Of a DNA stretch of 64,000 nt, positions 6,045-52,156 are shown in pieces; the stretch's first letter is position 1; every line of letters starts with the position of its first letter. The DNA is taken from NCBI GenBank assembly GCA_022813865.1, contig JALDZX010000012.1, positions 372,001 through 436,000 of the forward strand, read 5' to 3'. Below the pieces are notes generated by a model. The model had not been told where the DNA came from and did no database searches. It saw nothing but the letters and a program-made list of their open reading frames with translations. Made by a program: the position numbers and the translations under genes. The DNA is from Xylographa opegraphella (Eukaryota).

Positions 6045-8113
6045 CTAAAAACCTGTTTATTAGGAAGACGTTAGTAAATATACCAGCAGAGCGACATGGG
6101 TTTGAGAAATATACCTATCTCTGTGTTGCCCTCACCCATACTTTTACTTCCACTGCTTCCACTCTGAATGGCTCCGATTATCCCATCGATATAAGCTGCA
6201 CCACTCCACTTTTGATGTGTAAGTACGTCCACGCCAAGTTCCTTCTCTCGTCGTTGAACTAGCTTCACATATGCTAGCATCCCGTCTTTTTGGAAGGCTC
6301 GTGAAAGCTCAGCAGTGATAGTGGCTGTTGAGTGTAGCCCGGCCAAAGATATGAGCTGGAGAACAAAGCTAAGCCAGTCAGCGTGCTCTCATTCTGTTTA
6401 GGAAGAGAAATATCATCCTACCCGTGCTTGGCTAGGTCCCAGATGAAGGATTTCAAGGACACTTCGTCAAATCCATGTCCCATCCAATTGAATGAAGGAC
6501 TCAGATTGTACACAAGCTGCTTGCCGGGGAACGAGCTACGTATTTCACCCGCAAAACTTGCCGCTTTCTCGACACTAGGATCATTTGTCTCTATCCACAA
6601 AAGATCAGAATATGGAGCAAACGCCTTTCCTCGCTTAATGGCAGCAGGGAGCCCAGCGCGGTAGTGGTAGAAGCCTTCCCGTGTCCTAGGAATATCCCAA
6701 GAGAAGAAAACTGGTTTCTTGCTATATTGAGCGGCAAGAGTTCGCCTGCGAGATAAAGGCAGGTCGCGGTCTTGTGCAATTTGTTTGCTGTAGTCGTCCA
6801 TGGTACTCTGATCTGCCCCTTCAGAGCGCAAATGATTGATTACAGCTGATTTCATTGTGAGCAAGTCGATACATACTTCAGCTGTCATGCATGCATGCCT
6901 GTCAACACACCTTCGTCAAAGGTTACGAGCTTATGGTCTCTAACCCAAGCCGCTTCGTATTTATCAATTTCTTCACCAGTGGCACCCTTGGAGTCCATGA
7001 CTTGGATGGTCTCCGCCAGAGGCTCAACATCTTCGGTCACTCCGAGGATATATTCATGATCTCGCGTGTCAATTGCACTGCTTAACAGCTTACCACTTTC
7101 AGAATCAGTTCGAGCGATGATCAGATTTTCGCAGCCCATAAGATCCCATTGAAACCGGGTCGCTACCAGACGGTTGATGTGCTCCCCAACGGGTACAAGC
7201 ACTTTGCCTGCCAAATGCCCACATTTTTTGCCGCCGTGAAGCTGATCCTCGAAATGGACCGCGGCAGCACCGTTCTCGGCAAAGAGTTTTGCTAGTTTTA
7301 TAACGGCCGAAAGACCGCCGTGCCTGAGAAATCTTTAGTAAAGTTCTACGAAAACCTAGCTGACCTCACTACCCTGTATCGCCATCGGCTATTATTGGTC
7401 TCATATAGTCGATGTATGGTGTTTCCTGCCGTTCCTTTGTATTCAGCTTCCTCCGGGCGTCCCAGTGTTTCCGATCATGGAGCTGCTGTGCTTTGAAAAG
7501 CCGTTGCACTTGGTTTGGGACTGTATTATAGGGATAGTCTCCGAAATCCGGGGAGACCTCGTTGGTACTAGTAAGGACTGAGGAGCAGGCCCATCCAGAA
7601 ATATACAGCACCTCTTGATTTGCAGCCTGCTGGGTCATTTGTACAGGATCAATGGCACCCACTTCACAGTATCAGCGTCCAATTAACAACGTCAAAGGAC
7701 AAGTGAAACAGACTCGTGTGTACAGGTTCCGCGTTGGCAGCTCTTTCTCGGAAGAGATCAAAGAGTTTCTTTGCCATAAGAGAGCTGGGGTAAGTTTGCT
7801 GCAAAGACCCCCTCTTACTGACAACATCTTCCGCTGAGTACGGTCTTTTGATGCCTCTGTATCTCGGAGTGGCCCACCACTGCTTGACATCGTGGACCTG
7901 TTGGTCGAATAGAGCATCCTCTGCTGCTCCAGCTTTTACTGTCGTAGAAAGCAGCTGATAGGCGTCTGCTGGAAGGGAAGCAGGGACGGGAATATCTATG
8001 GTGGGTAGGCCGCCTTCCATATTCAGACATGTCGTGGAGAAAGATCGGAGGACAGATGTACGCAGTGGCCATGCAGCACGACGCGGTAAGCGTCGAGTAA
8101 CTGTGCGCAGCAT
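6045..8113 (-). CDS. mclA: Mitochondrial 2-methylisocitrate lyase (isocitrate lyase family); about 6 exons, last coding exon only 8 nt
   Basis: Arg-rich presequence [40 protein letters not shown] and [19 protein letters not shown] is the MCL-type residue set rather than ICL WQFIT. Terminal intron 6053-6114 (GTATAT..TACTAAC..CAG) gives ...NTEIGF*. Confidence 0.88.
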
Positions 8114-8397
8114 GGTTCACTACTCACTACTGACAAGTATATTGAGGCTCTATTATTAAACACCGCGGAATAATTGAAGTGACAGACTTTACGCAGAACC
8201 TTTTGTTTTCAAAATTGCATTCACAGTTAAACTGGAGACTGCTCAATGCTGACTTCAACTTTTGTTATCAGCGGTAGTGTGAGGTAACAATTGCTCAACG
8301 TCGTGCAAAGTTCATCAGTGTCTGTATCTGACAAGTGGAGAACTACGGAGTACTCCATCCTCGTTTATTCATGCCAATGAAAATGCCAGGAGGGATA

Positions 8398-8442
8398 CCT
8401 CGGCTGCCGGTTACGGCCGGGGTTCTCGGCCGGCCGGCCGGT
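8398..8442. promoter_or_regulatory. Candidate Zn2Cys6 sites in the divergent mclA/mcsA promoter, including CCTCGG (FarA/FarB-type) and clustered CGG/CCG triplets
   Basis: cctcggctgccggttacggccggggttctcggccggccggccgg lies in the middle of the ~540-bp intergenic region. Confidence 0.45.
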
Positions 8443-8653
8443 CTTGGCATTTGTGCGGAGTTGGAAGAAATTCCGTCATGCTGCAGGGATAATTTAGAGT
8501 ATGCTGCAACAACCCTAAGTGCGATGCTGCAAAGCAACGTTATAACTAGTAGACGGACAGATCTTAGAGTGGGCAATACTGAGGTACAGATCTAGATAAA
8601 CCGATTGAGTTATCGGTATAGCCTCAATTATCATATCTGTTTCTCAATTGACA

Positions 8654-10302
8654 ATGTCTCTTCGAACTCGGCTCCCAGTGAGGAGTGTGGGATCCCTCAG
8701 GGTAACTATGCATCTTTGTGGAATTGCTGTACGGGTTCTGACAGTAGAAACCTGTAGATATCTCCTTGCAAGCCAGCCAACGCAAGTCTCATTCGATCCT
8801 ATGCATCAGTCTCGGAACCGGACCTCAAAAGCACTCTCAGAGAGGCCATTCCTGCGAAAAGAGAGCTGTTAAAGAAAGTCAAGAGTCACGGCAGTAAGGT
8901 AATTGGGGAAGTTAAAGTTGAGAACACGATCGGCGGTATGAGGTTCGCCAGATATCTGTCCTTCCATGGATTCTTGGATTGACACTGGGTAGAGGTTTGA
9001 AAGCGATGGTATGGGAGGGCTCTGTTCTCGACGCCAACGAGGGAATCAGATTTCACGGCAAATCTATCAGTGATTGCCAAAATGAACTTCCCAAGGGAAC
9101 AAGCGGCACCGTGATGCTTCCAGAGGCTATGTTTTGGCTATTGTTGACGGGCCAAGTCCCGTCAACTTCTCAAATCCGTGCCTTCTCTCGAGAACTGGCA
9201 GAGAAGTCGCCTCTGCCAGCGTTTGTAGAGCACATGCTGGATAACTTCCCCAAAGACCTACACCCGATGACACAGCTCGCCTGTGCTGTCTCCGCGCTCA
9301 ATCATACCTCCGTGTTCGCCAAGGCTTATGAGCAAGGCATTAACAAGGCCGATTATTGGGAGCCAACCTTCGACGACAGTATATCACTTATAGCAAAACT
9401 ACCAGTAATCGCAGCGAAGATATACCAGAACTCGTATCGAGGTGGAGGTACGCTTCCGGGGAAGGTTGATCCAGAACAAGACTGGTCATACAATTATGCC
9501 ACAATGCTCGGCAGATCAGGCAAGGAAAACGAAAACTTTCAAGACCTCCTCCGGCTTTATCTTGCGTTACATGGTGATCATGAAGGGGGTAATGTTTCCG
9601 CTCACGCAACGCATTTAGTGGGAAGCGCCTTGAGCGACCCGTTCCTTAGCTACAGCGCCGGTCTTCAGGGACTTGCAGGGCCACTTCACGGGTTCGTCGA
9701 TCTTCTCGTTCTCAATCTTACAACTGCTATCTATACTTACATTCATGCAGTCTGGCAGCACAAGAAGTTCTCCGTTGGATTCAGAAGATGCAATCCACCA
9801 TTGGCTTATCCTACAAGGATTCCGACGTCAGGGATTACCTGTGGAGCACCCTCAAGTCGGGACAAGTCGTCCCCGGCTACGGCCACGGCGTTCTGCGGAA
9901 ACCAGATCCTCGATTCGAAACGCTGATGGCTTTTGCTTCCGCCAGGCCCGAAATCGCTGAAGATCCCCTCTTCCAGCTCGTGAAGAAGAACTCCGAAGTC
10001 GCCCCTGATGTCCTAAAGGAGCATGGGAAGGTGCGTGATCCTTGCGCTTAAAATTCTTGCCGTCATAGAGAGTGCTAATCCTTGTGAAGACCAAGAACCC
10101 TTACCCGAACGTCGACTCCTCCTCCGGCGTCCTCTTCCACCATTACGGCTTTCACGAGACGCTCTACTACACGGCCATCTTCGGAGTGAGCCGGGGCCTG
10201 GGCCCTCTGGCGCAACTCATCTGGGACCGAGCTTTGGGTTTGCCGATCGAAAGGCCGAAGAGTATCGATCTGGCTGGGTTGTTGACACTGGCTGAAAGCT
10301 GA
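8654..10302 (+). CDS. mcsA: Mitochondrial 2-methylcitrate synthase (citrate synthase family); introns near 8702-8746, 8943-8993, 9691-9749, 10031-10089
   Basis: [66 protein letters not shown] and LPIERPKS. It is divergent from methylisocitrate lyase. Confidence 0.85.
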
Positions 10303-12878
10303 GGGGTTGCGGCGTTCAAAAGCATTTTATGTAAATACAAGGTGGCCAATACGGTCCAAAAAAGTGTCTCCTGATGGTTCGTGAAAGATGTCTAAGTCTT
10401 CCCTATTACCAGCATGTCCTCCCCTTGACTGCCAGCACAACCTGCCTCGTCCTCCAGAAGTCATCCGTGCAATCGTCCGTCCGCCACCATACTCGCCAAT
10501 GCCATGACCTCCGACTCCTGGGGAGGCTTGCTGATCATGTCACCTGCACTCGTTACTACGATGGGTCTCTCGCGCCATGATACAGCAACAACAACCGAAA
10601 AGGAGCAGGACAAAACAAAAGACCCCACAGACCCCGGCTCCGTGGCAGCGAGCATGGCGACCGAGGAACTGCTGGAGGTGAGCAAGAGCGAGACGCTGAC
10701 CAGGACGGCAGGCTGTGCCGCGAAAAGACGAAGGAGATCACTCGCGAAGCTGTCTTTCAATCGAAAGCAGAAGGTAGCTGATCCAGAGCCGGACGTGGCG
10801 CGATCCCAGCACCCGTCCTACACACGTTCAGCAGTCCCACTCCGCAGAACACTGCTCGCTGTGATGGTAGCCCCGTACCTGTGACCGGGGCGGAGGAGCC
10901 TTCAGGCAACGAACGCGGTCAGTCGCAGCTGTCACCAACGTGGGTCATATGATGTGAGCGACTCGGCCATGCTCGCGACATTCGCTGGAGCGTGGGGGAG
11001 AAAGTGCAGGTCACGGCCGAGTGCGTAGGCAGGGCGGTTATGGGAGCAGAAGATGGAGGAAAAGGGAAAGCCGGGCTTGGCTAGCTCGGAGAAACAGAAG
11101 CGGGAGAAAAAGAAGCTTCTAGGCAAGGACCGGTGGCACCGCAGGTATGCACGTCAAGGGCTCAAAATGAAACATTCCTCAGCGGCTCCACCAGCCTCGT
11201 TCCGGGGGTTGACGGAGACGATAATTTGCCGGGGGAGGGGCCAGCCACTGCTTGCGCTCCGATCGTCAGGGAGGTCTGTCAACCGCGCCGGAACGCGGCC
11301 GACGATGTCCCTGGCCCTGCCACTGTGGGGCAGATCTGGAGACTCGGCAGTAGTTGATGAGACTACAAGAGAAGCCGTTGGACTAACACAGTGTGGATGG
11401 AGCGTTGAAGCATACCTGCACGATGTTAATGGTTACAGGATGGTCTCGATGTGCAATATGGTCCCACCACATTCTTGGACGGCCAGAACGGCGACATGAG
11501 GGCAGCATAAGGTAGCCCGGTACATAAAAGATGCTTATTGCGCAGCAGACGCAGGTAGCCTAGGTACCCTACGGTGGCCGTGCGCGGGCATGACATCCGG
11601 TCCGGATCAAGCTTCGCACAGTATTAGTAAAGTACCTGCCTTACCTACTCAATTAAACTTTGATGACCGGAAAGATTCAGCGCGGTGGTTGTTGTCCTGC
11701 AGGTGGCTTGCATGGTCTCCTGCAGATCGGACGTCGATCCTCGTCCAATCCCATCGAAACCTGGTTATCAGACAAAAGTTCGATTGACGGCCAGTAGTCA
11801 CTTTCGCATCAGCCAAAACATGGGAATTCTGCTGCTCACTTTACCATTCCTCCTCTCGGAGAAGCGAGCTCACCCAGCTGTCTAGAGCAAGTACTTGCGT
11901 CGCCTTTCATACCGTAGTCCTTATGTACCTAAGGTAGTGCTGGGGTGACGATGATCTTTCGTCGTCTGCGTCCGGTGCGTCCGGTGCATTTGCTTTGCGA
12001 CATGTGCAGTCTCCTGTCCGATGACTGTAAATTTAGCCGCTCCGCATCCGCAAAGCAGTCTTTGCTGGCAAACGCGATGTACGCCATTGAAACCTGGTGG
12101 AGACTTCGATCCTGCTGCTGAAATTGCGGCCGTCGCGCGAGGCATCCTCTTTGTGTATTTGGAGCCAATCGATGGAAAGGGAAAACGTCCGGCTATAAAA
12201 GATAGGAATGTCTTAGAGCAGTGAAATCTCCTCCTATTGTCACAAGCTCAGGGTCTGACAGCCATCTGCAGGTGATCCAGCCTTCCCCACAAACGTTCTT
12301 CATACCAGTGCAAGCTCAGGCCAAGGGGCTTGTGCACGAACTTGTCTATTCCGTTTCCGTTCAAAAGCGTTGGTGTACCACATTCACACCTGTGTCTTTC
12401 TTGAGTCCCATCAGATTGTTGTCTCTTCTGAACGAGCCCTTGCCTAGCCATGCAATTGAAGATTTATCGATCTTAAGAAGGACCGAATTTGTCGCCTTCT
12501 TTGATGCTTGGTTCCCCGTCTGATGAACCTCGATCACACTTTTATACATACCATTTGACAATTGACCCACATTCCTAAAGTTTTGCTTTGTTATCCCGTG
12601 GAGCCTATTGACTGCGTCACTTAAGTGCATCCATATATATCGTTACCGGCCTTGACGTCTCCTGGTGTCAGAATTCCTTGGTTTTCCTTGTTGTCGAATA
12701 AGAGATCCCGGCTACAATTGATTGAAGTTGTGATACATTCGTGTAAAGAGGTACGTGATTCTCCTATTACGTTCTGGAATTAGCAAGCCTTATTTCTAGA
12801 TCAGATTGGCTACTGACGTATTTACAGTCAGCTGTAGAACCTTTCCGCCTCAGACTTCAGCCATTATTCTTTGCCAGG

Positions 12879-14222
12879 ATGTCGACCTGGCATAATTTGA
12901 GCATCAATGTTAACCTATCCAACGACTTTGAAGATCAGTCCGACGCCCTTACATCAAGTAAGAGCTCAAGTTTCGCCTCCTCCGCTTCTTTTGCGTCTTC
13001 AAACACATCTCCGGCATCCTCACGAAGACCTTCAAGATGTTCGGAATCTTGGCTTCCACAATGTCACTCTGGGCCTTCTCCAATGGCAAGCACCGGTCCA
13101 GAGACACCGAATAGTACGACGTCCTTTACTGTGGCTACCTTTGCGAACGACGCGAATGCTCCCATGGTAGGTTCTGCAATGGAATGGACTCTCCATGATG
13201 GATCTCATTTGCCTCGGGGAGTAGATGACGATGCATGGTCGACCAAAGCCCAGTCAGACAGTGTTCAAAAGACTCAGTACATAGACTGGAACACAGTATA
13301 CTCTCCGATGGACCATACCGCCCTCGGTTCCGATGTATTTAGGCAATTTCCGCAATGGTCGGGACTACCAGATTTGCCCACGTTTCCTGATGAAAGCCAC
13401 TCCCTCACAGATCCTGACTACGATCCATTGAGAGGCACGATATCCCAGAATGACAGTTTTTGGACACAGAATATTCCGTATCAGCAGCCACTGACGATTG
13501 TACCGTCTCAAACACTTGTCCATCGACCAAAAACACCACTGCCCATACTCGCTGAAGCGTTTCAGACTCCTGTCAAAGTCGAACGGCATGAATGGCAAGG
13601 CCAGAATCACGATTTCTCGAGTCCTTTGCCAAGCCCAATCAAAACGGCCTCTGTCTCAGGTTCTCTTTCGCGTTCGTGTCCAGCATTGGCCACTGTTACG
13701 AAACGACGAGTGAAGTCGGGATCAAGGATCATCACGTATGATTTCATTAAGAACAAGTCGGGCAAGAAGTTCTACCAACGCCTCGGGGCAGCAGGTACCA
13801 ACGGTCAGCCAGGTGAAATTTTGCCCATCGACCAAATCGCAGAAGAAAAGCCCAAGAAAAATACCTGCGGATTCAGAGACAGCAATGGGCTCGTTTGTAC
13901 AAGAAGTTTCAAGAGAGGGGAACATCTCACTCGCCATCGGGAGATCCATAAACGTAAACCCCCAATGCCATGCCCAGTGTGCGTAACATGGGAAAAATTC
14001 ACACGGATATTGCCGACACGAATAGCGGCGGGTAGGGGTGACAATCTGGTAGCCCATATCCGAAACACACATATGAAACTATCGTCTTCGGGCAGGAACC
14101 CACGTGGTCGGGCGGACCCATTTACTGGGGAAAAAATTGAGATAACCAACGAGTGGCTCAAGTCGCATGGAATTGACATGGACCATCCTGGGAAGAAGCA
14201 GATAAAACCAGAGAGAAGATGA
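12879..14222 (+). CDS. C2H2 zinc-finger transcription factor, BrlA-like; 5'-UTR intron 12751-12827, TATA-like element ~12633
   Basis: Two C-terminal fingers, C..C..FKRGEHLTRHREIH and CPVC...RGDNLVAHIRNTH..SGRN, with a Ser/Pro-rich N-terminus. Confidence 0.8.
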   Translation: MSTWHNLSINVNLSNDFEDQSDALTSSKSSSFASSASFASSNTSPASSRRPSRCSESWLPQCHSGPSPMASTGPETPNSTTSFTVATFANDANAPMVGSAMEWTLHDGSHLPRGVDDDAWSTKAQSDSVQKTQYIDWNTVYSPMDHTALGSDVFRQFPQWSGLPDLPTFPDESHSLTDPDYDPLRGTISQNDSFWTQNIPYQQPLTIVPSQTLVHRPKTPLPILAEAFQTPVKVERHEWQGQNHDFSSPLPSPIKTASVSGSLSRSCPALATVTKRRVKSGSRIITYDFIKNKSGKKFYQRLGAAGTNGQPGEILPIDQIAEEKPKKNTCGFRDSNGLVCTRSFKRGEHLTRHREIHKRKPPMPCPVCVTWEKFTRILPTRIAAGRGDNLVAHIRNTHMKLSSSGRNPRGRADPFTGEKIEITNEWLKSHGIDMDHPGKKQIKPERR

Positions 14223-44764: not shown

Positions 44765-46326
44765 CTAGAATGTATCCTTAAGGGCCTCGTCTTTCTTAAG
44801 CTGTGTACCAAGCTGCTTAACACGAGCACGACATAGTACACAATCTTTCCATCCTTCAGTCTGAAGATGCTCATTGCTGACTGGACACGATTCAAGAGGT
44901 TGTACAGGCGGTGAACTCTTCTTGCTCTTTTTCTTGTCCGTCTTTTTAGCTACGAAAATATCTTCCTCTACTACTGGAACCGGAAGCGTATCCTTCGTAG
45001 ACTTCTTCTTATTCGTTTTTTTGGGTATGGGCAAATCTTCTGTTAGTGGTTCTGGTGTGTAGAGCGTCTCATGGTCGAAGTAGGATGGCAGTGGGGCTGG
45101 AGTCGGGGATGAAATCGGAAGCTTATCATACTTCTTGACCTCATTGGATATGGCCTTTGCTGGTTGCGTATGAGCGCTCTCACCGTGGGCAATGCCTTCA
45201 CTTTGATACGAAGATGTGCGAGGTCCAGGGGATCGGCCACGCAATTCAAGGGCAGACGACCTCCAATTAGTGAAGAGAGAATCCTCTTCGGCAACGACTG
45301 GCTCCTCTTTACCGAAGATAGCCTCATAAGCAGCAGAACGCGCTTTTTTACGAGATGAAAGCTTCGCCTTCGCAGTGGTAAGATCGATTTCGGCGGCGAT
45401 AGGTACCACCAGCTCTACTGTCGTTCTGTTAGAATCGGAAGCCTTGATACTCCCTCGCGAGTTTTGCCGAGACCCGGATCCTGAGTGCTTGGAGGCTGTC
45501 TCGTTGCTCTCGGCAAGGTTTCGGACAATGCTATTGACCAGGACTAGGTTGAAGCTCCTGTTTTCCCCAATGCGGTTTAGAAAAGCGTCTTTCTTGAACA
45601 AGTCTCTGTCACTCTTGTATGCAGCGTCAATCGTGCTCTTCAAGAAGGTTACAAACCATTGCTCCCCAGCAGGCAGTTCATTGTAAATTGCCGCGGTGAT
45701 GTCAAGCAGATCGAAGAACGGAAGTACTGTTCCAGATGATGTGACATGGAGCTTGGCCAGTGTCTCCAGACCGGGCAGTCCATGAATTCTTGCAACGCAA
45801 TACGCGAGAACGTTGGTTTTGTAATCGGCTAGTTTCTGGCCAATGCCTGATATCCCCGGCAACTTGAGCGTCTGGTAGGTTCCGGTATTGAGATAATGCA
45901 CGAGCGTATGGCTAGCATCCTCGTGCACGTCGGCAGTAAGGTCGATGACTGGCAGTGGCTTGGAGTGGAAGTTGCATTTCTCCGCCCACTTCGGAACAAA
46001 ACGGAGATAATCTTCCAATATGGTGTATTGTACTCGAGAAGCCCCAATCAACAAGGTGTAAGGACGTGTCGTATATGGCCTGGGTTAAGAGTTAGTGGAT
46101 TAGCTTATGATAGAAGAACTACATGAAGAAGGGCTTACGATGAAGTGGGACGGTCATGTACCGCTACATTGCGAGTCTCAGCGAAACGGCATTTATCTTT
46201 GCCAGATGCTATTTGCGTCTGTTCTGTTTCCATGCTTGGGACATCTACTTCAGACGGAGCTTCAACAGGTTGAGGCTCGCTTGGGATCTCGGTCATGGCT
46301 TCCGCTACTTTGCCCTTCTTCACCAT
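44765..46326 (-). CDS. Hypothetical protein with degenerate BTB/POZ-like region and Lys-rich C-terminus (intron ~46090-46164)
   Basis: VHEDASHTLVHYLNTGTYQTL and AYCVARIHGLPGLETLAK are typical of fungal BTB-like proteins; long ORF. Confidence 0.6.
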
Positions 46327-47176
46327 TCTCAGACTCCGAAGCGATTGTTGCAAGATGAAGAACGATAGGTCCGTGACAGTAGTTCAACGCCGAAGACTAG
46401 CTGCAAGTGAGGTTTGAAGCTGTAGAAGTGTTGTTGTGATTGTGATATACGACTGTGACTTATGGATGCCTAGAGCGGGGTATCGTAGCTGCGAGTGTTG
46501 CCGGTGCAACATGATCGATTCGCCCACAGACCCAGATGGCTACCAGCATGGATGCAGCCGGCGACGGCAGCAGGGGTCTCAGCTGACTGCAGAGGGGCTC
46601 CATCACGTAATTGGAGGACTCAAGACGTGAGTTGCTTAACCACATGATTCCTTGGACTTGTAATACAATAGTATTTTCAGACTGAGTCCTGGAGGAGATG
46701 ATTAAGTCTGTACCCATTGAGAGTAGAGCCTAGCTGGTAGTCGTCCTCTTATAGTCTGGATAAAAGTGGCTCCGGCAAGTTTTATGCACATGACAAAGCG
46801 ATTCGTATCGGGCTGCTGCAGACGGCCAAGGGCTTGGCTGTCTCAGCAACGCTTGGCGGATGATAACAATGCTTGGCGGTCGCAGCAAGCTAGCCAATCA
46901 GATACCTGGCTGTGAGGGTGTTGATGCCCGTTTTGCGCGTTTCCGGATTAGCGGGCAGCCACGATTGGAGCAAAAGGTCTCGTTTGTGCTTAGTTAAGTT
47001 TTTAGTGGCGCCGAGCTGGGAAACCGATTTCAGATTCCTGCCTCCTCCACCTGGGCCCTCTTCCACTTTCCCATTACTCCCAACAACCACACAAGCATAC
47101 CTCTACTCCATACCTCAACCTTAGACTCTCTCTACGCTTCGATTCGAAAGCCGTACCTCCGTACACATAGTTCAAA

Positions 47177-47415
47177 ATGCCTGCTCCAGCAAAGAACGTC
47201 CAGCAGCCGCAGCCTGCACAACCCATGACCACCACTGCGACCACCGGCGGCCTCCAGGTCCAGCAGCCCGTCTGTTCCTTCTACAACAGCACCTTACAAT
47301 CATGAACTGATGGAAGCTATAGAAACCCCAGCCACAGATGGAGATGAGCCTCCGTGGTGGTGAATACGCTTCGTGCAACTGCTGTGGCATGGGCTGCGCA
47401 GAGGGCTGCTGTTAA
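47177..47415 (+). CDS. 61-aa Gln/Pro-rich microprotein with LRGG and a Cys-rich tail (CYSTM-like); intron 47270-47322; absent from the ORF track
   Basis: Kozak-like caaaATG and intron GTCTGT..CTGAT..TAG. Product: MPAPAKNVQQPQPAQPMTTTATTGGLQVQQP|KPQPQMEMSLRGGEYASCNCCGMGCAEGCC*. Confidence 0.75.
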
Positions 47416-48207
47416 ACAGGTAGGAAGAGACCGAACCAGTTACAATGTTCACAGAACTGATTTTGAGCTTGCGAAAAGCTTCTCGCCATGATGCCATCAA
47501 CTTGGGTCACGTCAATACACGTTTGGTCTGGGCGCTCGGAGAAGATAGCCAGACGAGGAGTTTGTGATGGAGAAGAGTAGTTAGGCAACGACTGCGTTTT
47601 CTGCATGCTGTTTGTTGTAGTGGAGACTGTAAGGTTACTGTTGAGCATGTTGTAATTACGAGAATACGAAGCCGTGTTTATACGTCTACCGTCCAGCGCA
47701 AGTGACCACCCCAAGCCACTCCCTGCTTCAGAGAGAAGATTGAGGCCGAGGGACACGTGTATAAAATACGTGAATAAAAGGGTGCTGAAAGGGCGGCCCC
47801 CGTTGATCATCGACGTGGAAAATATAGCATGGCTCCATGGGTTACTGTTTCACTTGGCTCCACATGCGGTGTGTTTGCTCAAAGCGCAGGAGAGCCAGTC
47901 TTAGGCGGTCCAGCGGCCATCTTCCCCAAGACATAAGGGCAAAAGTTTGTGGTTCCAGCGGCATCCTTCCCATAAAGGTGGGAACTACTTCCCGCTGTTC
48001 TGCCACCGACAGTGCCTGTCGACCCGCCCGGTCTACTCACAGCCCCAAGCAGTCAGCCTTAAGTTACTATCCTCGCTATCCAAGGCCCGAGGCCCTCGCT
48101 TCGCAGCTCACCAATCCGCCACGGAAAGCAACATCCAGATGGAAGCCCATAGAACAGCGCACCGGTCGCCTCACGACCGGCTGTCCTGAAACCCCAATGC
48201 CCTCATC

Positions 48208-49259
48208 ATGGCCACGTCCGCCTTTGCGCTCAAAGAGCAGGGCAACAAGTAAGTCCCCTCCTCTCCTGGAGCGCCACACCCACCGCACCTCTGACCGTCC
48301 GTCCCTCGCAGAGCGTTCAAAGCCGGCGACTACAAAGAGGCCGAAGAGCTCTACTCCAAAGCGTACGCACCCCTCGCTCCCGCCCGCGAACCAGCGCGAC
48401 TGCCCTTCCCGCTGACCCTTGCCTCCGTCCAGCATCCAACGCGACTCCGCCAACCCGGCCCTCTTCACCAACCGCGCCTTCACCCGGATCAAGCTGCAAG
48501 CATGGGAAGCCTGCATCGACGACTGCATCCGCGCCATCGAGCTGCAGCCCCAGAGCATGAAGGGCTACTACTACCTCGCCCAGGCGCAGGTCGCGCTGCA
48601 CCACCCGAACGAGGCCCTGAGCTCCGCCACCACCGCCTACGACATCTGCCTGCGCACGCACGACTCCAGCGCCTCCAACATCTCGGCCCTGATCCTGCAG
48701 GCCAAGAAGGAGAAGTGGGAGGTCAAGGAGCGGGACCGCATCCGTCGCCGGAGTGATCTGCTCCGCGAGTTGGAGGATGCGCTGCTGCGCGCGGCGGACG
48801 TGCAGCGGCTGCAGATCGACCAGCGGCTGAAGTATCTGGACCTCGGTCCGACGGAGGGCAGGGAGGAGAAGGAGGAGATCACGGCGGCGACGAGGCGGAA
48901 GGTCGAGGAGCTGAGGAATATATTTGCGGTGTCCGATCCGGTGAATCTGGCGAGGAGAGTACGTGTTGTATTGGGGGAGGCCCTTTTGTGGTCGTTTGTT
49001 TCTTTCCTTCTGACATCTATGCCAGGAAGTCCCGGATTATCTGATCGACAACATCTCCTTCGCCATCATGCACGATCCGGTCGTCACGAAGACGGGGAAC
49101 TCATACGATCGATCGACGCTGCTGGAACATCTCAAACGCTCGAACACGGACCCTCTCACCCGCGAACCGCTGACACGCGAGGATTTGAGGCCCAACTTGG
49201 CCCTGAAACAGGCATGCGCTGAGTTTCTGGAGGAGAACGGGTGGGCGGTGGATTGGTGA
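48208..49259 (+). CDS. CHIP/STUB1-like TPR + U-box E3 ubiquitin ligase (introns ~48249-48311, 48363-48432, 48959-49026)
   Basis: LKEQGNK.FKAGDYKEAEELYSKA and FTNRAFTRIKL (TPR); VPDYLIDNISFAIMHDPVVTKTGNSYDRSTLLEHL..DPLTREPL..LRPNLALK (U-box). Confidence 0.9.
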
Positions 49260-49761: not shown

Positions 49762-52156
49762 TCAGCCATTATTGACTGTATGTATGAAAGCGAGGTAAAC
49801 CCCCACGGTCGACAAGACGAAAACGATCAAGGCTCCAAGGCCAAGAGTCATTAGCGGTCTCTGGCTCCGAGGCTTGACTGACTCCACTACGACACTGGGT
49901 CCTCTGAGAGAAATGAACCGCTCGTGCTGCATTCCAAACTCATGCCAGAATTCTCTTTCCTTGCGCTGCCAGTTGGTTGTGTTTCCGTTTTCCAAGCTCT
50001 TCAGTCGTAAATAGGGATAGAGGTCGCTATCGACGAAATCTTCCGACATGTAGTCCGCTCGTCGTAGGACATCGCACCACGAGTCCAGCATATCTTCTTT
50101 GTAAGCGAAAGCGAACATGTGCTGGCCAAACCCATCGGCAAGGACAAAAAGGGGCTTGCATAAGCATAAGATGTTGGCTAAAAATGGCACAAGTTCTTCC
50201 TCGTCGCGAGCTAACACCAAAATAGAAACGATGACTCGTCGAATCCCGGCGAGGATCTCTATCCGTGTTTTACTTGGTGTTTCTGCCCTTTGTTGCTTAG
50301 GCAGGCGTGCAAGGTCAACCATGCTTCTTAGAATAATGCTTTGAACATGGGACCAATTGAACAATTCAGGCTTCTGAGCCCAGAATTCTCGTTCGACTTC
50401 CTCCAGTGCTCTGGTGTCCTCATCGATAATTGCCTCCTCAACAAGATCCACGACAGCGCACTCCAGCTCTTTTGAGTGTTGCGGGTTAAGGATGGCGAAT
50501 AGGAGCAGCCGGTTTGCACGCGGAAGAGAAGGTGCATTAGCGGTGCTTTCAAGCAGGAGTCTTTCCATCCGAAATACATTGGCATGAATATCTCCTCGAC
50601 AGTCCTGAAGACATAGATAAAAACATTCGCGCGGGTCGAGCTCATTGGATATCTGTTCGGTTCTCAGGCCTTGACTGTACAGCCATGTGCAGGTTTCGAG
50701 TATTCCGGCAATGTGATCATGCGATGGTTCTTGCGACATCTCCTTCCACCACCAGTCCAAATGGAGGCCTACAAGACTGATCTCCAAAAGATTGTATGTA
50801 GTTGTGTCGCGGTCCCTCAAGGATAGTGTACCTTGACTTAGCATTGTCTGCAATTTACTCAACTCTCCGCGCGTGATTATTGAAGTGGTTTCTGAAGGGA
50901 TGTAGACGTAGCGTACAGGCTCCACTGCATAACTCGGCTGCGTTGTCCCACACATTGATATCATTTCTTCGAACTTGAGATTGATCCCACCACTCGAGAT
51001 CCAAGGCGCTAATTTCACTTGAACGGACGTACGCTTAAGGTCATGGTGCTTCTCAAAATTATTCCGATCTTTATTCCATATTCGATGAGCTGTTGTTGCA
51101 CGATTCACGATTATTGTTCCAAGCCACGCACTGTGATACACTGTGGTAGTAGCTTCGCCATAAGATACGTCCAGACTTTCATATCGTGTATCTGTACTTG
51201 TTGGGGTGGCCTTCGATGTGCAATACTTCTCTTGCGTTTCCTTTTCCGGAGAGTGCTTTAACCAAGATTTGTGATCCGATGTTTTCATGCAGTCTGGGTT
51301 CGACTTCGGGATAATGTTCGGGGTGTGTGGCGCATCTGAGGTGGCATAAAATTGTTCGTCGCAGATCACATCTTGGACAACCCGGTGAAGAAAAGGCTTC
51401 GTCCACTGATTGCGTTCTGGGTCATTTGTTGCTCTGCTTGCAAGTGATTCGCTTATGGAGGCCACCCGTGCATTATTCTGATGTACATTCTCTGTCCTTC
51501 CATTTCGTCTTTCCACCATTAAATTGCTGGAGCTCGTTTTTGCAGCCCAGACGCAGTCTTGCGTTCTTTTTACATTTTTTCCTTCCACATAGGTAATCTT
51601 GGACATCGACTGCATGATCAGGGTATTCTGAGCAAGAATGTTGGAAATCATCCGGCTTTGTCGAGTGTTTATATTCCTAAGTCTCATGAGTCTTGTTTCA
51701 GATTAATCAATACTTAAAAGCAATAGCATACCTATCCACAATTCTCTGCGCCATCTCAAGGGTTGTTTTCGCCCGTTCGAGATCATCGATCAACTTTGAC
51801 ACCTTCTCCTTCTGCAACACAGACTTGACCTTGTTCCAAAGATGCCTCGGACGGCTTGTTCTTCCATCTGGAAGTGTTTCATTTAGTAATTTTAACAGGG
51901 CCAAAACCTGTCTGTGTGTCCGCGAAGAAGCGGCTTCAACGAGATACCGTACATCATCAGGGATGGAGCTAATGTACTCCGAATCGAGCTCGTTGAAGTT
52001 ATCCACTGTATGCCTGAGCAAGTCTAGTTCGTTCCGTAGATCCTGGACGTATTCCGGAGCATCTTGGACTTCTTCCAGGAAATCTTTCAGCTTCAGAAAA
52101 CTATCCACACACTGCGCTCCGAACCCAATGAAAGCAATAATAGAGGCAGGATCCAT
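49762..52156 (-). CDS. Protein with fungal HeLo-like/SesA-type N-terminal helical domain and C-terminal TM helix (intron ~51691-51731)
   Basis: MDPASIIAFIGFGAQCVDSFLKLKDFLEEVQDAPEYVQDLRNEL...LWNKVKSVLQKEKVSKLIDDLERAKTTL, and C-terminal LMTLGLGALIVFVLSTVGVYLAFI. Confidence 0.65.

What the first reader, a model, noticed from the sequence alone, without database searches (positions are those of the whole stretch)
47177..47415. Hidden spliced microprotein: ubiquitin-type LRGG motif fused to a 17-aa six-cysteine tail
Seen: a two-exon 61-codon gene absent from the ORF track, with a Q/P-rich leader, then MEMSLRGG, then EYASCNCCGMGCAEGCC-stop. Established: LRGG is the C-terminal motif after which deubiquitinases cleave ubiquitin precursors, and CYSTM-type Q/P-rich proteins carry Cys-rich tails. 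Inference: the protein has no ubiquitin fold or signal peptide, yet it may be a cytosolic precursor cut after LRGG by a DUB-like protease. Cleavage would release a Cys-rich peptide (metal-binding, lipidated or disulfide-knotted) and expose a diglycine end. It lies ~800 bp upstream of, and co-oriented with, the CHIP U-box ligase, which may be coincidental.
Basis: partly seen in the sequence, partly recalled or inferred. Interest (0 to 1): 0.8.

Follow-up and report, generated by a model that had tools for sequence, protein, structure and literature searches.

The report
Conserved fungal microprotein with cysteine tail
A real, conserved two-exon gene in a filamentous fungus encodes a roughly 61-residue disordered protein ending in a cysteine cluster; the tail is more likely a lipid anchor or a metal-binding site than part of a ubiquitin-style cleavage precursor.

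Summary
Exon 1 (47177-47269), a 53-nt GT..AG intron (47270-47322) and exon 2 (47323-47415) read as 61 codons. The gene is real. I found six distinct homologues: this window, two metagenome loci, two Helotiales proteins and one unnamed protein. All share the start Met-Pro, a drifting Q/P/E-rich leader, and a tail RGGEYA-x-C-x-CC-G-x-x-C-x-E-x-CC followed directly by the stop. All three DNA copies carry a phase-0 intron at the same ..QP|K.. point. In exon 2, pN is 0.15-0.19 against pS 0.52-0.76.

LRGG itself is not invariant. The Leu is Met in 2 of 6, while RGG is 6 of 6, and the conserved block runs straight across the proposed cut site. No fold is predicted, and there is no signal peptide or membrane helix. 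No Pfam family matches, CYSTM and the metallothionein families included. CHIP adjacency is not conserved.

Best guess (about 0.38): a CYSTM/CYSPD-like protein tethered to membranes by S-acylation of the tail. Close rival (about 0.30): a metallothionein-like metal binder. Ubiquitin-type processing is about 0.07. No RNA evidence could be obtained.

The parts
47030..47176 (+). Pyrimidine-rich stretch ahead of the ATG, taken as the probable 5' leader or core promoter. It ends ...TTCAAA before the ATG.
   Evidence: Read directly. Its role is inferred only: there are no transcript data and no upstream motif shared with L004 or L005.
47177..47269 (+). Exon 1: 31 codons (P0001), starting Met-Pro. It is a Q/P/T-rich leader that ends ..QQP.
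   Evidence: Met-Pro at the start and QP at the end are invariant in 6 of 6 homologues. The remainder drifts.
47270..47322 (+). Phase-0 intron of 53 nt: GTCTGT...CTGAT...TAG.
   Evidence: 41.5% G+C against 62% in the exons. An intron sits at the same codon boundary in L004 (112 nt) and L005 (55 nt), both with donor GTATGT. P0003 is a gene call that read a 114-nt version through in frame.
47323..47415 (+). Exon 2: 30 codons plus TAA (P0002). It carries the conserved end of the protein.
   Evidence: Purifying selection shown.
47350..47370 (+).
   Evidence: Position. RGGEYA is invariant in 6 of 6. The residue before it is Leu in 4 and Met in 2.
47374..47412 (+). C-terminal thiol cluster C-x-C-C-G-x-G-C-x-E-x-C-C, followed directly by the stop codon.
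   Evidence: Position. The spacing and the terminal Cys-Cys-stop are invariant in 6 of 6. A seventh, central Cys is present in 4 of 6; it is Met in this window and Tyr in L005.

Best explanation
This is a genuine, conserved, spliced protein-coding gene of filamentous ascomycetes. The two named relatives are both Helotiales. It encodes a cytosolic, intrinsically disordered protein of 61-65 residues.

The leader is a poorly conserved Q/P/E-rich spacer. The functional part is the invariant last ~20 residues: RGGEYA, then C-x-CC-G-x-x-C-x-E-x-CC at the very C-terminus.

Most likely mechanism (inferred by analogy, not shown): the terminal cysteines are S-acylated (palmitoylated) by a DHHC acyltransferase. 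This would tether the protein to a membrane by lipid rather than by a membrane helix. Yeast CYSTM/CYSPD proteins Cpp1-3 work this way. The conserved RGGEYA block would then be a recognition or partner-binding element next to the anchor, not a ubiquitin-type cleavage site.

Confidence. That the gene is real and coding: about 0.95. That the C-terminal thiol cluster is the functional core: about 0.8. The specific S-acylation mechanism: about 0.38, which is the figure given in the confidence field.
For: Shown here.
- Gene structure and coding constraint.
- Six distinct homologues with the tail invariant and the leader drifting.
- Both named homologues are Helotiales.
- No membrane helix or signal peptide: the maximum 19-residue Kyte-Doolittle mean is 0.35 or less in all six.
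- No predicted fold: AF2 mean pLDDT 57.8, pTM 0.12, no secondary structure. The Atlas's own model of P0005 has pLDDT 0.25.

Pointing to the CYSPD-like reading.
- Same architecture as the CYSTM family as described in PMC10840359 (abstract and introduction): small proteins with a P/G/E-rich N-terminal part and 5-6 conserved Cys at the C-terminus.
- That paper shows yeast Cpp1-3 are bound to the plasma membrane by palmitoylation, not by a helix, and depend on Akr1 and Erf2 (abstract; Discussion).
- Language-model neighbours of P0005 include a 534-member ascomycete cluster auto-named 'CYSTM domain-containing protein' (score 0.91, 181 of 256 features shared). For the exon-2 peptide alone, a similar cluster scored 0.86. 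These are leads only.
- The stop codon follows Cys-Cys directly in 6 of 6. From recollection, not from a call: yeast Yck1/Yck2 are anchored by Akr1-dependent palmitoylation of a terminal Gly-Cys-Cys that follows a Gln-rich spacer.
- One central Cys is replaceable, by Met in the window and Tyr in L005. This matches the finding that no single Cys is crucial in Cpp1.
Against: - Pfam CYSTM (PF12734) does not match the two exon peptides or P0003, P0005, P0006, P0007 even at E up to 10.
- The tail is polar. Its non-Cys residues average -0.75 to -1.59 on the Kyte-Doolittle scale. No helix is predicted, whereas the CYSTM segment was defined as a predicted hydrophobic helix.
- The motif bound by the ankyrin repeats of the Akr1-like human enzymes, (VIAP)(VIT)XXQP (PMC5655499, passages), is matched by 0 of 6 sequences. 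They carry only a near-miss, [IVL][EQ][VTA]xQP.
- Non-Cys residues are strictly conserved (R, G, G, E, Y, A, G, E), which a mere lipid anchor does not require.
- One source (UniRef) names P0005 'Metallothionein'.
- CGCGC / CxC / CC runs are typical of metallothioneins (my recollection).
- No transcript, localisation or acylation data exist.
- The AF2 alignment had only 3 rows, so its low confidence is weak evidence of disorder.
Confidence: 0.38

Rival explanations
1. Metallothionein-like metal binder. The 6-7 clustered thiolates, with help from the conserved Glu and, in this window, a Met, wrap a small Cu(I) or Zn/Cd-thiolate cluster in the cytosol. They would buffer or hand on metal, and the leader is a disordered spacer.
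For: - Tail composition is C/G/S/A/N/E with CxC, CC and CGCGC runs, 6-7 Cys in 13 residues, and fixed spacing without indels in 6 of 6.
- The apo-protein is predicted unfolded, as metallothioneins are.
- UniRef names P0005 'Metallothionein'.
- The polar tail fits a soluble cluster better than a membrane segment.
- The window's Cys-to-Met replacement keeps a soft-metal ligand (inference).
- A 'metallothionein-like' small gene, MAT1-1-4, is on record in the Helotiales species Pyrenopeziza brassicae (PMC3199270 passages; bioRxiv 10.1101/2020.04.14.040725 passages). Its sequence could not be obtained, so kinship is untested.
Against: - No Pfam family of any kind matches at E up to 10, metallothionein families included.
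- No solved-structure sequence matches (0 hits at E up to 10).
- About 45 residues, roughly 70% of the protein, are Cys-free. Whole-protein Cys content is only 10-11%.
- An aromatic Tyr and other non-ligand residues are invariant, which is unusual for classical metallothioneins (recollection).
- No shared metal-responsive promoter element. A single TTTGCGCG lies at -245 in the window only, with none in L004 or L005.
- The UniRef name is probably automatic.
Confidence: 0.3
2. A cytosolic precursor is cut after [L/M]RGG by a deubiquitinase-like or other Gly-Gly-specific cysteine protease. This releases a 17-residue Cys-rich peptide that starts with Glu and leaves a leader with a free diglycine end.
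For: - RGG is invariant in 6 of 6 and sits directly before the conserved tail. The residue at P4 is always Leu or Met.
- The layout of drifting leader and invariant C-terminal 'core' resembles processed peptide precursors.
- From recollection: short LRGG peptides are poor but real substrates of some deubiquitinases, and some Gly-Gly proteases accept Met, Leu or Ile at P4.
Against: - There is no beta-grasp fold. Only about 44 low-complexity residues precede GG, and no structure is predicted.
- Leu is not invariant, being Met in 2 of 6.
- Conservation is continuous across the proposed scissile bond (RGG-EYA), so it need not mark a boundary.
- CHIP adjacency, the only contextual hint of a ubiquitin link, is not conserved.
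- Nothing here tests cleavage.
Confidence: 0.07
3. Not a functional gene in this genome: a chance or decaying ORF whose intron is not removed. In that case only a 42-residue product without the Cys tail, or nothing, would be made.
For: - The window's donor GTCTGT has C at +3, while both homologous loci have GTATGT.
- The window copy has lost the central Cys.
- No RNA evidence could be obtained.
- The window's protein is not among database hits.
Against: - Both exons are intact and in frame, with start, stop, junction residues (QP|K) and all invariant tail residues preserved.
- pN is far below pS against both DNA homologues.
- The exon/intron G+C contrast is clear.
- A branch-like CTGAT and a TAG acceptor are present.
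Confidence: 0.03

Closest known systems
CYSTM / CYSPD proteins (Pfam PF12734; yeast Cpp1-3, S. pombe Uvi15, plant PCC1/CDT1), as described in PMC10840359
   Same: - Small (60-150 aa).
- Low-complexity P/Q/G/E-rich N-terminal part.
- 5-7 conserved Cys packed into the extreme C-terminus, with no signal peptide.
- Language-model neighbours auto-named CYSTM.
- The expected mode of action, membrane tethering by S-acylation, is taken from this family.
   Different: - No match to the Pfam profile at E up to 10.
- The tail is shorter (13-17 residues), polar and Gly-rich, with no predicted helix and no hydrophobic residues after the last Cys.
- It carries an invariant RGGEYA block that is not part of the CYSTM description.
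Fungal copper metallothioneins (for example the Neurospora/Agaricus type with 7 Cys; recalled, not fetched)
   Same: - CxC / CC / CGC runs among Gly, Ser, Asn and Ala.
- 6-7 Cys.
- Unfolded without metal.
- One family member is labelled 'Metallothionein' by UniRef.
   Different: - Cys is confined to the last fifth of the protein.
- There is a conserved Tyr.
- No metallothionein Pfam family matches and no solved-structure sequence matches.
- No metal data.
MAT1-1-4, the 'metallothionein-like' mating-type gene of Pyrenopeziza brassicae (Singh & Ashby 1998; seen only as cited)
   Same: A small Cys-rich 'metallothionein-like' gene described in the same order (Helotiales) as the two named homologues.
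   Different: - The window gene is not in a mating-type locus: none of 128 ORFs of 110 aa or more has an alpha-box or HMG domain.
Ubiquitin and ubiquitin-like precursors ending ..LRGG
   Same: An [L/M]RGG tetrapeptide followed by further residues.
   Different: - No beta-grasp domain.
- Leu is not invariant.
- The residues after GG are as conserved as those before it.
C-terminal Cys-Cys palmitoylation signal of yeast casein kinases Yck1/Yck2 (recalled; GFP-Yck2 is used as the palmitoylated control in PMC10840359)
   Same: A disordered Gln-rich stretch followed by a protein end of ..G/x-Cys-Cys-stop, in a soluble protein without a lipid or helix anchor.
   Different: - Here there is no kinase or other folded domain.
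- There are 6-7 Cys rather than 2.
- The sequences were not compared.

Membership tests
Ubiquitin / ubiquitin-like precursor | Beta-grasp fold of about 70 residues directly before the Gly-Gly | tested here: not met
   Only about 44 low-complexity residues precede GG. AF2 gives no secondary structure, pLDDT 57.8, pTM 0.12. The Atlas model has pLDDT 0.25. No Pfam ubiquitin match.
Ubiquitin / ubiquitin-like precursor | Conserved LRGG (or at least GG) at the processing site | tested here: inconclusive
   RGG is 6 of 6. Leu is 4 of 6 and Met 2 of 6. Conservation continues past GG.
Ubiquitin / ubiquitin-like precursor | Cleavage after GG by a deubiquitinase | not testable with these tools
   Needs tagged expression and GG mutants.
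CYSTM / CYSPD (PF12734) | Match to the family profile | tested here: not met
   0 families at E up to 10 for P0001, P0002 and for P0003, P0005, P0006, P0007.
CYSTM / CYSPD (PF12734) | Small protein with a low-complexity P/G/E(Q)-rich N-terminal part | tested here: met
   61-65 residues, with Q+P+E making up 16-21 of them. Family description from PMC10840359.
CYSTM / CYSPD (PF12734) | C-terminal segment predicted as a hydrophobic helix carrying 5-6 conserved Cys | tested here: not met
   6-7 conserved Cys are present, but the maximum 19-residue hydropathy is 0.35 or less, the non-Cys tail residues are polar, and no helix is predicted.
CYSTM / CYSPD (PF12734) | S-acylation of the Cys cluster and membrane binding | not testable with these tools
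   Needs acyl-biotin exchange and fractionation.
Metallothionein | Match to a curated metallothionein family, or to a solved metallothionein | tested here: not met
   No Pfam family at E up to 10. 0 PDB sequences at E up to 10 with profile A3. The only support is the UniRef name of P0005.
Metallothionein | High Cys content in CxC / CC / CxxC motifs (criterion recalled) | tested here: inconclusive
   Tail: 6-7 Cys in 13 residues. Whole protein: 10-11% Cys. An invariant Tyr is present.
Metallothionein | Formation of a metal-thiolate cluster | not testable with these tools
   Needs metal titration and mass spectrometry.
MAT1-1-4 (Helotiales mating-type 'metallothionein-like' gene) | Location inside the MAT1-1 idiomorph beside alpha-box and HMG genes | tested here: not met
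   Pfam on 128 of 128 window ORFs of 110 aa or more shows no alpha-box or HMG domain.
MAT1-1-4 (Helotiales mating-type 'metallothionein-like' gene) | Sequence similarity to the P. brassicae protein | not tested
Substrates of ankyrin-repeat DHHC enzymes (zDABM) | (VIAP)(VIT)XXQP motif in a disordered region (PMC5655499) | tested here: not met
   The regular expression matches 0 of 6. The sequences have [IVL][EQ][VTA]xQP at the end of exon 1.

The most novel reading that the evidence does not exclude
The invariant [L/M]RGG|E junction is a true processing site in a protein with no ubiquitin fold. A Gly-Gly-specific cysteine protease would split this disordered microprotein into two parts. One is a leader with a free diglycine end. 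The other is a 17-residue thiol-rich peptide beginning with Glu, which is a destabilising N-terminal residue in the Arg/N-degron pathway (recalled). The result would be a new class of cytosolic processed peptide, or a fold-less diglycine tag in fungi. The conservation pattern does not exclude this, but nothing positively supports cleavage.
Probability: 0.06. Interest if true: 0.85.

Novelty: new variant of a known kind. Interest (0 to 1): 0.45.

Why it matters
The gene is a clear case of a conserved fungal microprotein that ORF-based and many pipeline annotations miss. Among 1.84 billion protein representatives, only one relative scored at E up to 0.001, and that one was a mis-called intron read-through. 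Only three correctly sized relatives surfaced among 5.8 billion sequences.

The family couples a disordered leader to one of the most tightly conserved short Cys motifs seen here. It lies between two poorly understood groups: CYSTM/CYSPD proteins, whose mode of action is still called 'mysterious' by the authors of PMC10840359, and fungal metallothioneins. Deciding whether the tail is acylated or metal-loaded would help resolve the open question of whether CYSTM-like cysteine tails chelate metals or carry lipids.

It may also bear on the origin of the 'metallothionein-like' mating-type gene of Helotiales. The two named homologues come from apple pathogens, so annotation of this family matters for those genomes too.

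Tried and rejected
- RNA evidence: no RNA holder was listed for 46900-47800.
- Whole genome: none is held, so paralogues could be sought only within the window. None were found.
- The 42-residue unspliced ORF found nothing. P0003 residues 64-103 found only itself.
- Earlier findings of the scan: nothing by place, sequence or words.
- Solved structures: 0 sequence matches. No fold search was run, because the model has no confident structure.
- Synteny: tblastx of L001, L003, L004 and L005 (4 of 5 loci; L002 left out as near-identical) against the window gave only the gene itself, from L005.
- Flank ORFs of L004/L005: 21 of 24 were sent to Pfam; the 3 overlapping the gene itself were dropped. 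The result was one FHA domain.
- Promoter: no 7- to 10-mer is shared by all three upstream regions. Recalled metal-, stress- and Yap-type motifs are not shared. One TTTGCGCG occurs in the window only.
- Mating-type locus idea: rejected for the window.
- zDABM motif: 0 of 6.
- Literature. Searches 'metallothionein'+'Helotiales' (7 papers), 'MAT1-1-4'+'metallothionein' (2), 'MAT1-1-4'+'Leotiomycetes' (0) and 'cmtA'+'metallothionein'+'Aspergillus' (6) gave no description of this family. Singh & Ashby 1998 is not held. PMC6514546 (passages) and PMC7074063 (passages) gave no sequence-level information.
- I did not find the family described in print, but only these searches were made.

Full report
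**1. The observation**

Reading 46800-48600 shows an ATG at 47177 and 31 open codons to 47269 (P0001). A 53-nt stretch follows at 47270-47322. It starts GTCTGT, contains CTGAT 12 nt before its end, and ends TAG. Then come 30 codons and TAA at 47323-47415 (P0002).

Read without splicing, the frame stops after 42 codons. A plain ORF list therefore shows only a 42-aa and a 25-aa fragment. The exons are 62% G+C (GC3 69%), against 41.5% in the intron and 49-51% in the flanks. LRGG lies at 47350-47361 and the six-Cys cluster at 47374-47412.

**2. Is it a gene?**

No RNA run was listed and no whole genome is held, so the test had to be comparative.

- phmmer of the 30-residue exon-2 peptide against 1.84 billion representatives gave two hits at E up to 0.001. 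One was P0003 (103 aa, E 6.3e-5, 77% identity over all 30 residues). The other was an unrelated repetitive protein, P0004.
- P0003 is the same kind of gene with its intron read through in frame: leader, then a stretch beginning V-C-S (the GT.TG. donor), then the conserved end.
- A metagenome scan with the alignment of the two (A2) matched 74 stretches, of which 5 encode a relative. L001-L004 are near-identical copies of one gene, with 1-5 mismatches per 754-900 nt, all in the 5' flank. L005 is a more distant one.
- A profile of the three exon-2 peptides (A3) then found 3 proteins among 3 candidates:
  - P0005, 65 aa, Phlyctema vagabunda. NCBI calls it 'hypothetical protein' and UniRef 'Metallothionein'. 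E 5.4e-10.
  - P0006, 62 aa, Diplocarpon coronariae. E 2.3e-9.
  - P0007, 61 aa, unnamed source. E 3.9e-8.
- Both named species are Helotiales.
- The window's own protein did not appear in any search. As far as this collection shows, it is unannotated.

**3. Anatomy of the family**

I aligned six distinct sequences: window, L004, L005, P0005, P0006 and P0007. P0003 and L001-L003 were left out as copies of the L004 gene.

- Invariant in 6 of 6: Met-Pro at the start; QP at the end of exon 1; a Met early in exon 2; RGGEYA; and C-x-C-C-G-x-x-C-x-E-x-C-C followed at once by the stop.
- There is no indel anywhere in the last 20 residues.
- The residue before RGG is Leu in 4 (window, L004, P0005, P0007) and Met in 2 (L005, P0006).
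- A seventh, central Cys is present in 4 of 6. It is Met in the window and Tyr in L005.
- The leader keeps its composition (Q+P+E 16-21 residues) but not its sequence. Net charge runs from 0 in the window to -7.
- In all 3 DNA copies the intron sits at the same codon boundary (..QP|K..), phase 0, with lengths of 53, 112 and 55 nt. The donor is GTATGT in L004 and L005.
- Exon 2 is under purifying selection:
  - window vs L004: pN 0.189, pS 0.523;
  - window vs L005, last 22 codons: pN 0.149, pS 0.76;
  - L004 vs L005: pN 0.149, pS 0.75.

I take the gene as real with about 0.95 confidence. The residual doubt is the window's unusual donor (C at +3) and the lack of transcript data.

**4. Properties of the protein**

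- No Pfam family matches either exon peptide or four full-length relatives at E up to 10. No solved-structure sequence matches.
- There is no membrane helix or signal-peptide-like stretch. The maximum 19-residue hydropathy is 0.35 or less, and the non-Cys residues of the tail are polar.
- AF2 on P0005 with a 3-row alignment gives pLDDT 57.8, pTM 0.12 and no secondary structure. The Atlas's own model has pLDDT 0.25.
- The protein is therefore best described as a cytosolic, disordered chain with a thiol cluster at its end. The shallow alignment makes the AF2 result weak on its own.

**5. Context**

The gene lies 793 bp upstream of, and co-oriented with, a CHIP-like gene. That gene has TPR and CHIP_TPR_N matches (the CHIP_TPR_N score of 26.6 bits is just below Pfam's 26.7-bit cut-off) and a U-box at E 7.8e-19.

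The adjacency is not conserved:

- tblastx of four loci against the window found nothing but the gene itself.
- The 3-kb flanks of L004 hold only an FHA domain among 21 of 24 ORFs tested.
- A Pfam sweep of all 128 window ORFs of 110 aa or more shows ordinary housekeeping genes and no mating-type genes.
- No upstream motif is shared among the three loci.

**6. Mechanism**

Three readings fit a cytosolic terminal Cys cluster.

(a) *S-acylated anchor.*
- The architecture is that of CYSTM proteins. In yeast these have been shown to be held on the plasma membrane by palmitoylation of the Cys-rich end rather than by a helix, dependent on Akr1 and Erf2, with no single Cys essential (PMC10840359: abstract and introduction, Discussion).
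- Language-model neighbours of P0005 are ascomycete clusters of 61 aa (50 members, 0.97, possibly its own cluster), 66 aa (81 members, 0.94) and 79 aa auto-named 'CYSTM domain-containing' (534 members, 0.91, 181 features shared). These are leads, not tests.
- The invariant Cys-Cys-stop recalls the Yck1/2 signal (recollection).
- Against: the CYSTM profile does not match, the tail is polar and not helical, and the ankyrin-repeat binding motif (VIAP)(VIT)XXQP (PMC5655499, passages) is matched by 0 of 6.

(b) *Metallothionein-like binder.*
- For: tail composition, fixed spacing and the UniRef label.
- Against: the Cys-free 70% of the protein, the invariant Tyr and other non-ligand residues, and the lack of any family match.

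- For: RGG is invariant.
- Against: Leu is not invariant; the conserved block spans the proposed cut; there is no ubiquitin fold.

I put these at about 0.38, 0.30 and 0.07, with 0.03 for a non-functional copy. The remainder is for functions not thought of. Every step of (a)-(c) beyond the sequence features is inference.

**7. Comparison and novelty**

The family fails the tested membership criteria of CYSTM (profile, hydrophobic helix), metallothioneins (profiles, solved relatives) and ubiquitin-like precursors (fold). It shares the general build of the first and the local Cys chemistry of the second.

A possible link to the 'metallothionein-like' MAT1-1-4 gene of the Helotiales species Pyrenopeziza brassicae could not be tested. 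That gene is known to me only from citing passages, the original paper is not held, and no sequence was available.

Members of the family already sit in public databases as hypothetical proteins. The gene is therefore not unknown, but I found no description of it in the searches made. I rate it a new variant of a known kind: small disordered proteins with a C-terminal cysteine module.

**8. Verdict**

- Observation: confirmed.
- Interpretation: partly supported. The gene, the drifting leader and the fixed Cys spacing and RGG hold. The ubiquitin-type reading is weak and untested, and the CHIP link is coincidental.
- Interest: moderate (0.45). It is a well-supported, overlooked, conserved microprotein with a striking invariant motif and an experimentally tractable either/or question (lipid or metal), but nothing yet departs from known biology.

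Noticed in passing
window 46847-46879: Two copies of CAA[C/T]GCTTGGCGG spaced 20 bp apart, about 300 bp upstream of the ATG, followed by CCAAT at 46894. This could be a paired CGG-type transcription-factor site. No equivalent was seen upstream of L004 or L005.
   Followed up: partly
window 46932-46939: A single TTTGCGCG, which fits the recalled copper-response element TTTGC[T/G]C[A/G], at -245. It occurs in the window only, with about 0.05 expected by chance by my own rough estimate.
   Followed up: partly
all six homologues, residues 1-2 (window 47177-47182): Every family member starts Met-Pro. After Met removal this would expose an N-terminal Pro, the kind of end recognised by the GID/Gid4 Pro/N-degron pathway (recalled). 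Not tested.
   Followed up: no
end of exon 1 (window 47252-47269): [IVL][EQ][VTA]xQP is conserved in 6 of 6. It is a near-miss to the zDHHC17 ankyrin-repeat binding motif (VIAP)(VIT)XXQP and fails only at the second position. It lies 18-23 residues before the first Cys of the cluster (counted).
   Followed up: partly
L004 2878-2939: A GTATGT...GACTAAT...CAG stretch just upstream of the ATG looks like a 5'-UTR intron in the L004 copy. No counterpart was looked for in the window.
   Followed up: no
window 48208-49259: A CHIP-like gene with TPR and CHIP_TPR_N matches and a U-box (E 7.8e-19), with at least two short introns visible near its 5' end. Its adjacency to the microprotein gene is not conserved.
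   Followed up: partly
window 6421-10048: A divergent pair of an isocitrate-lyase-family gene (- strand, 6421-8116) and a citrate-synthase-family gene (+ strand, 8922-10048). This arrangement would fit methylcitrate-cycle genes. It rests on Pfam only.
   Followed up: no
window 44768-46084 (-), 49765-51702 (-), 12759-14219 (+): Long open frames of 439, 646 and 487 aa with no Pfam family at the thresholds used: E up to 0.001 for the first two and E up to 1e-5 for all three.
   Followed up: no
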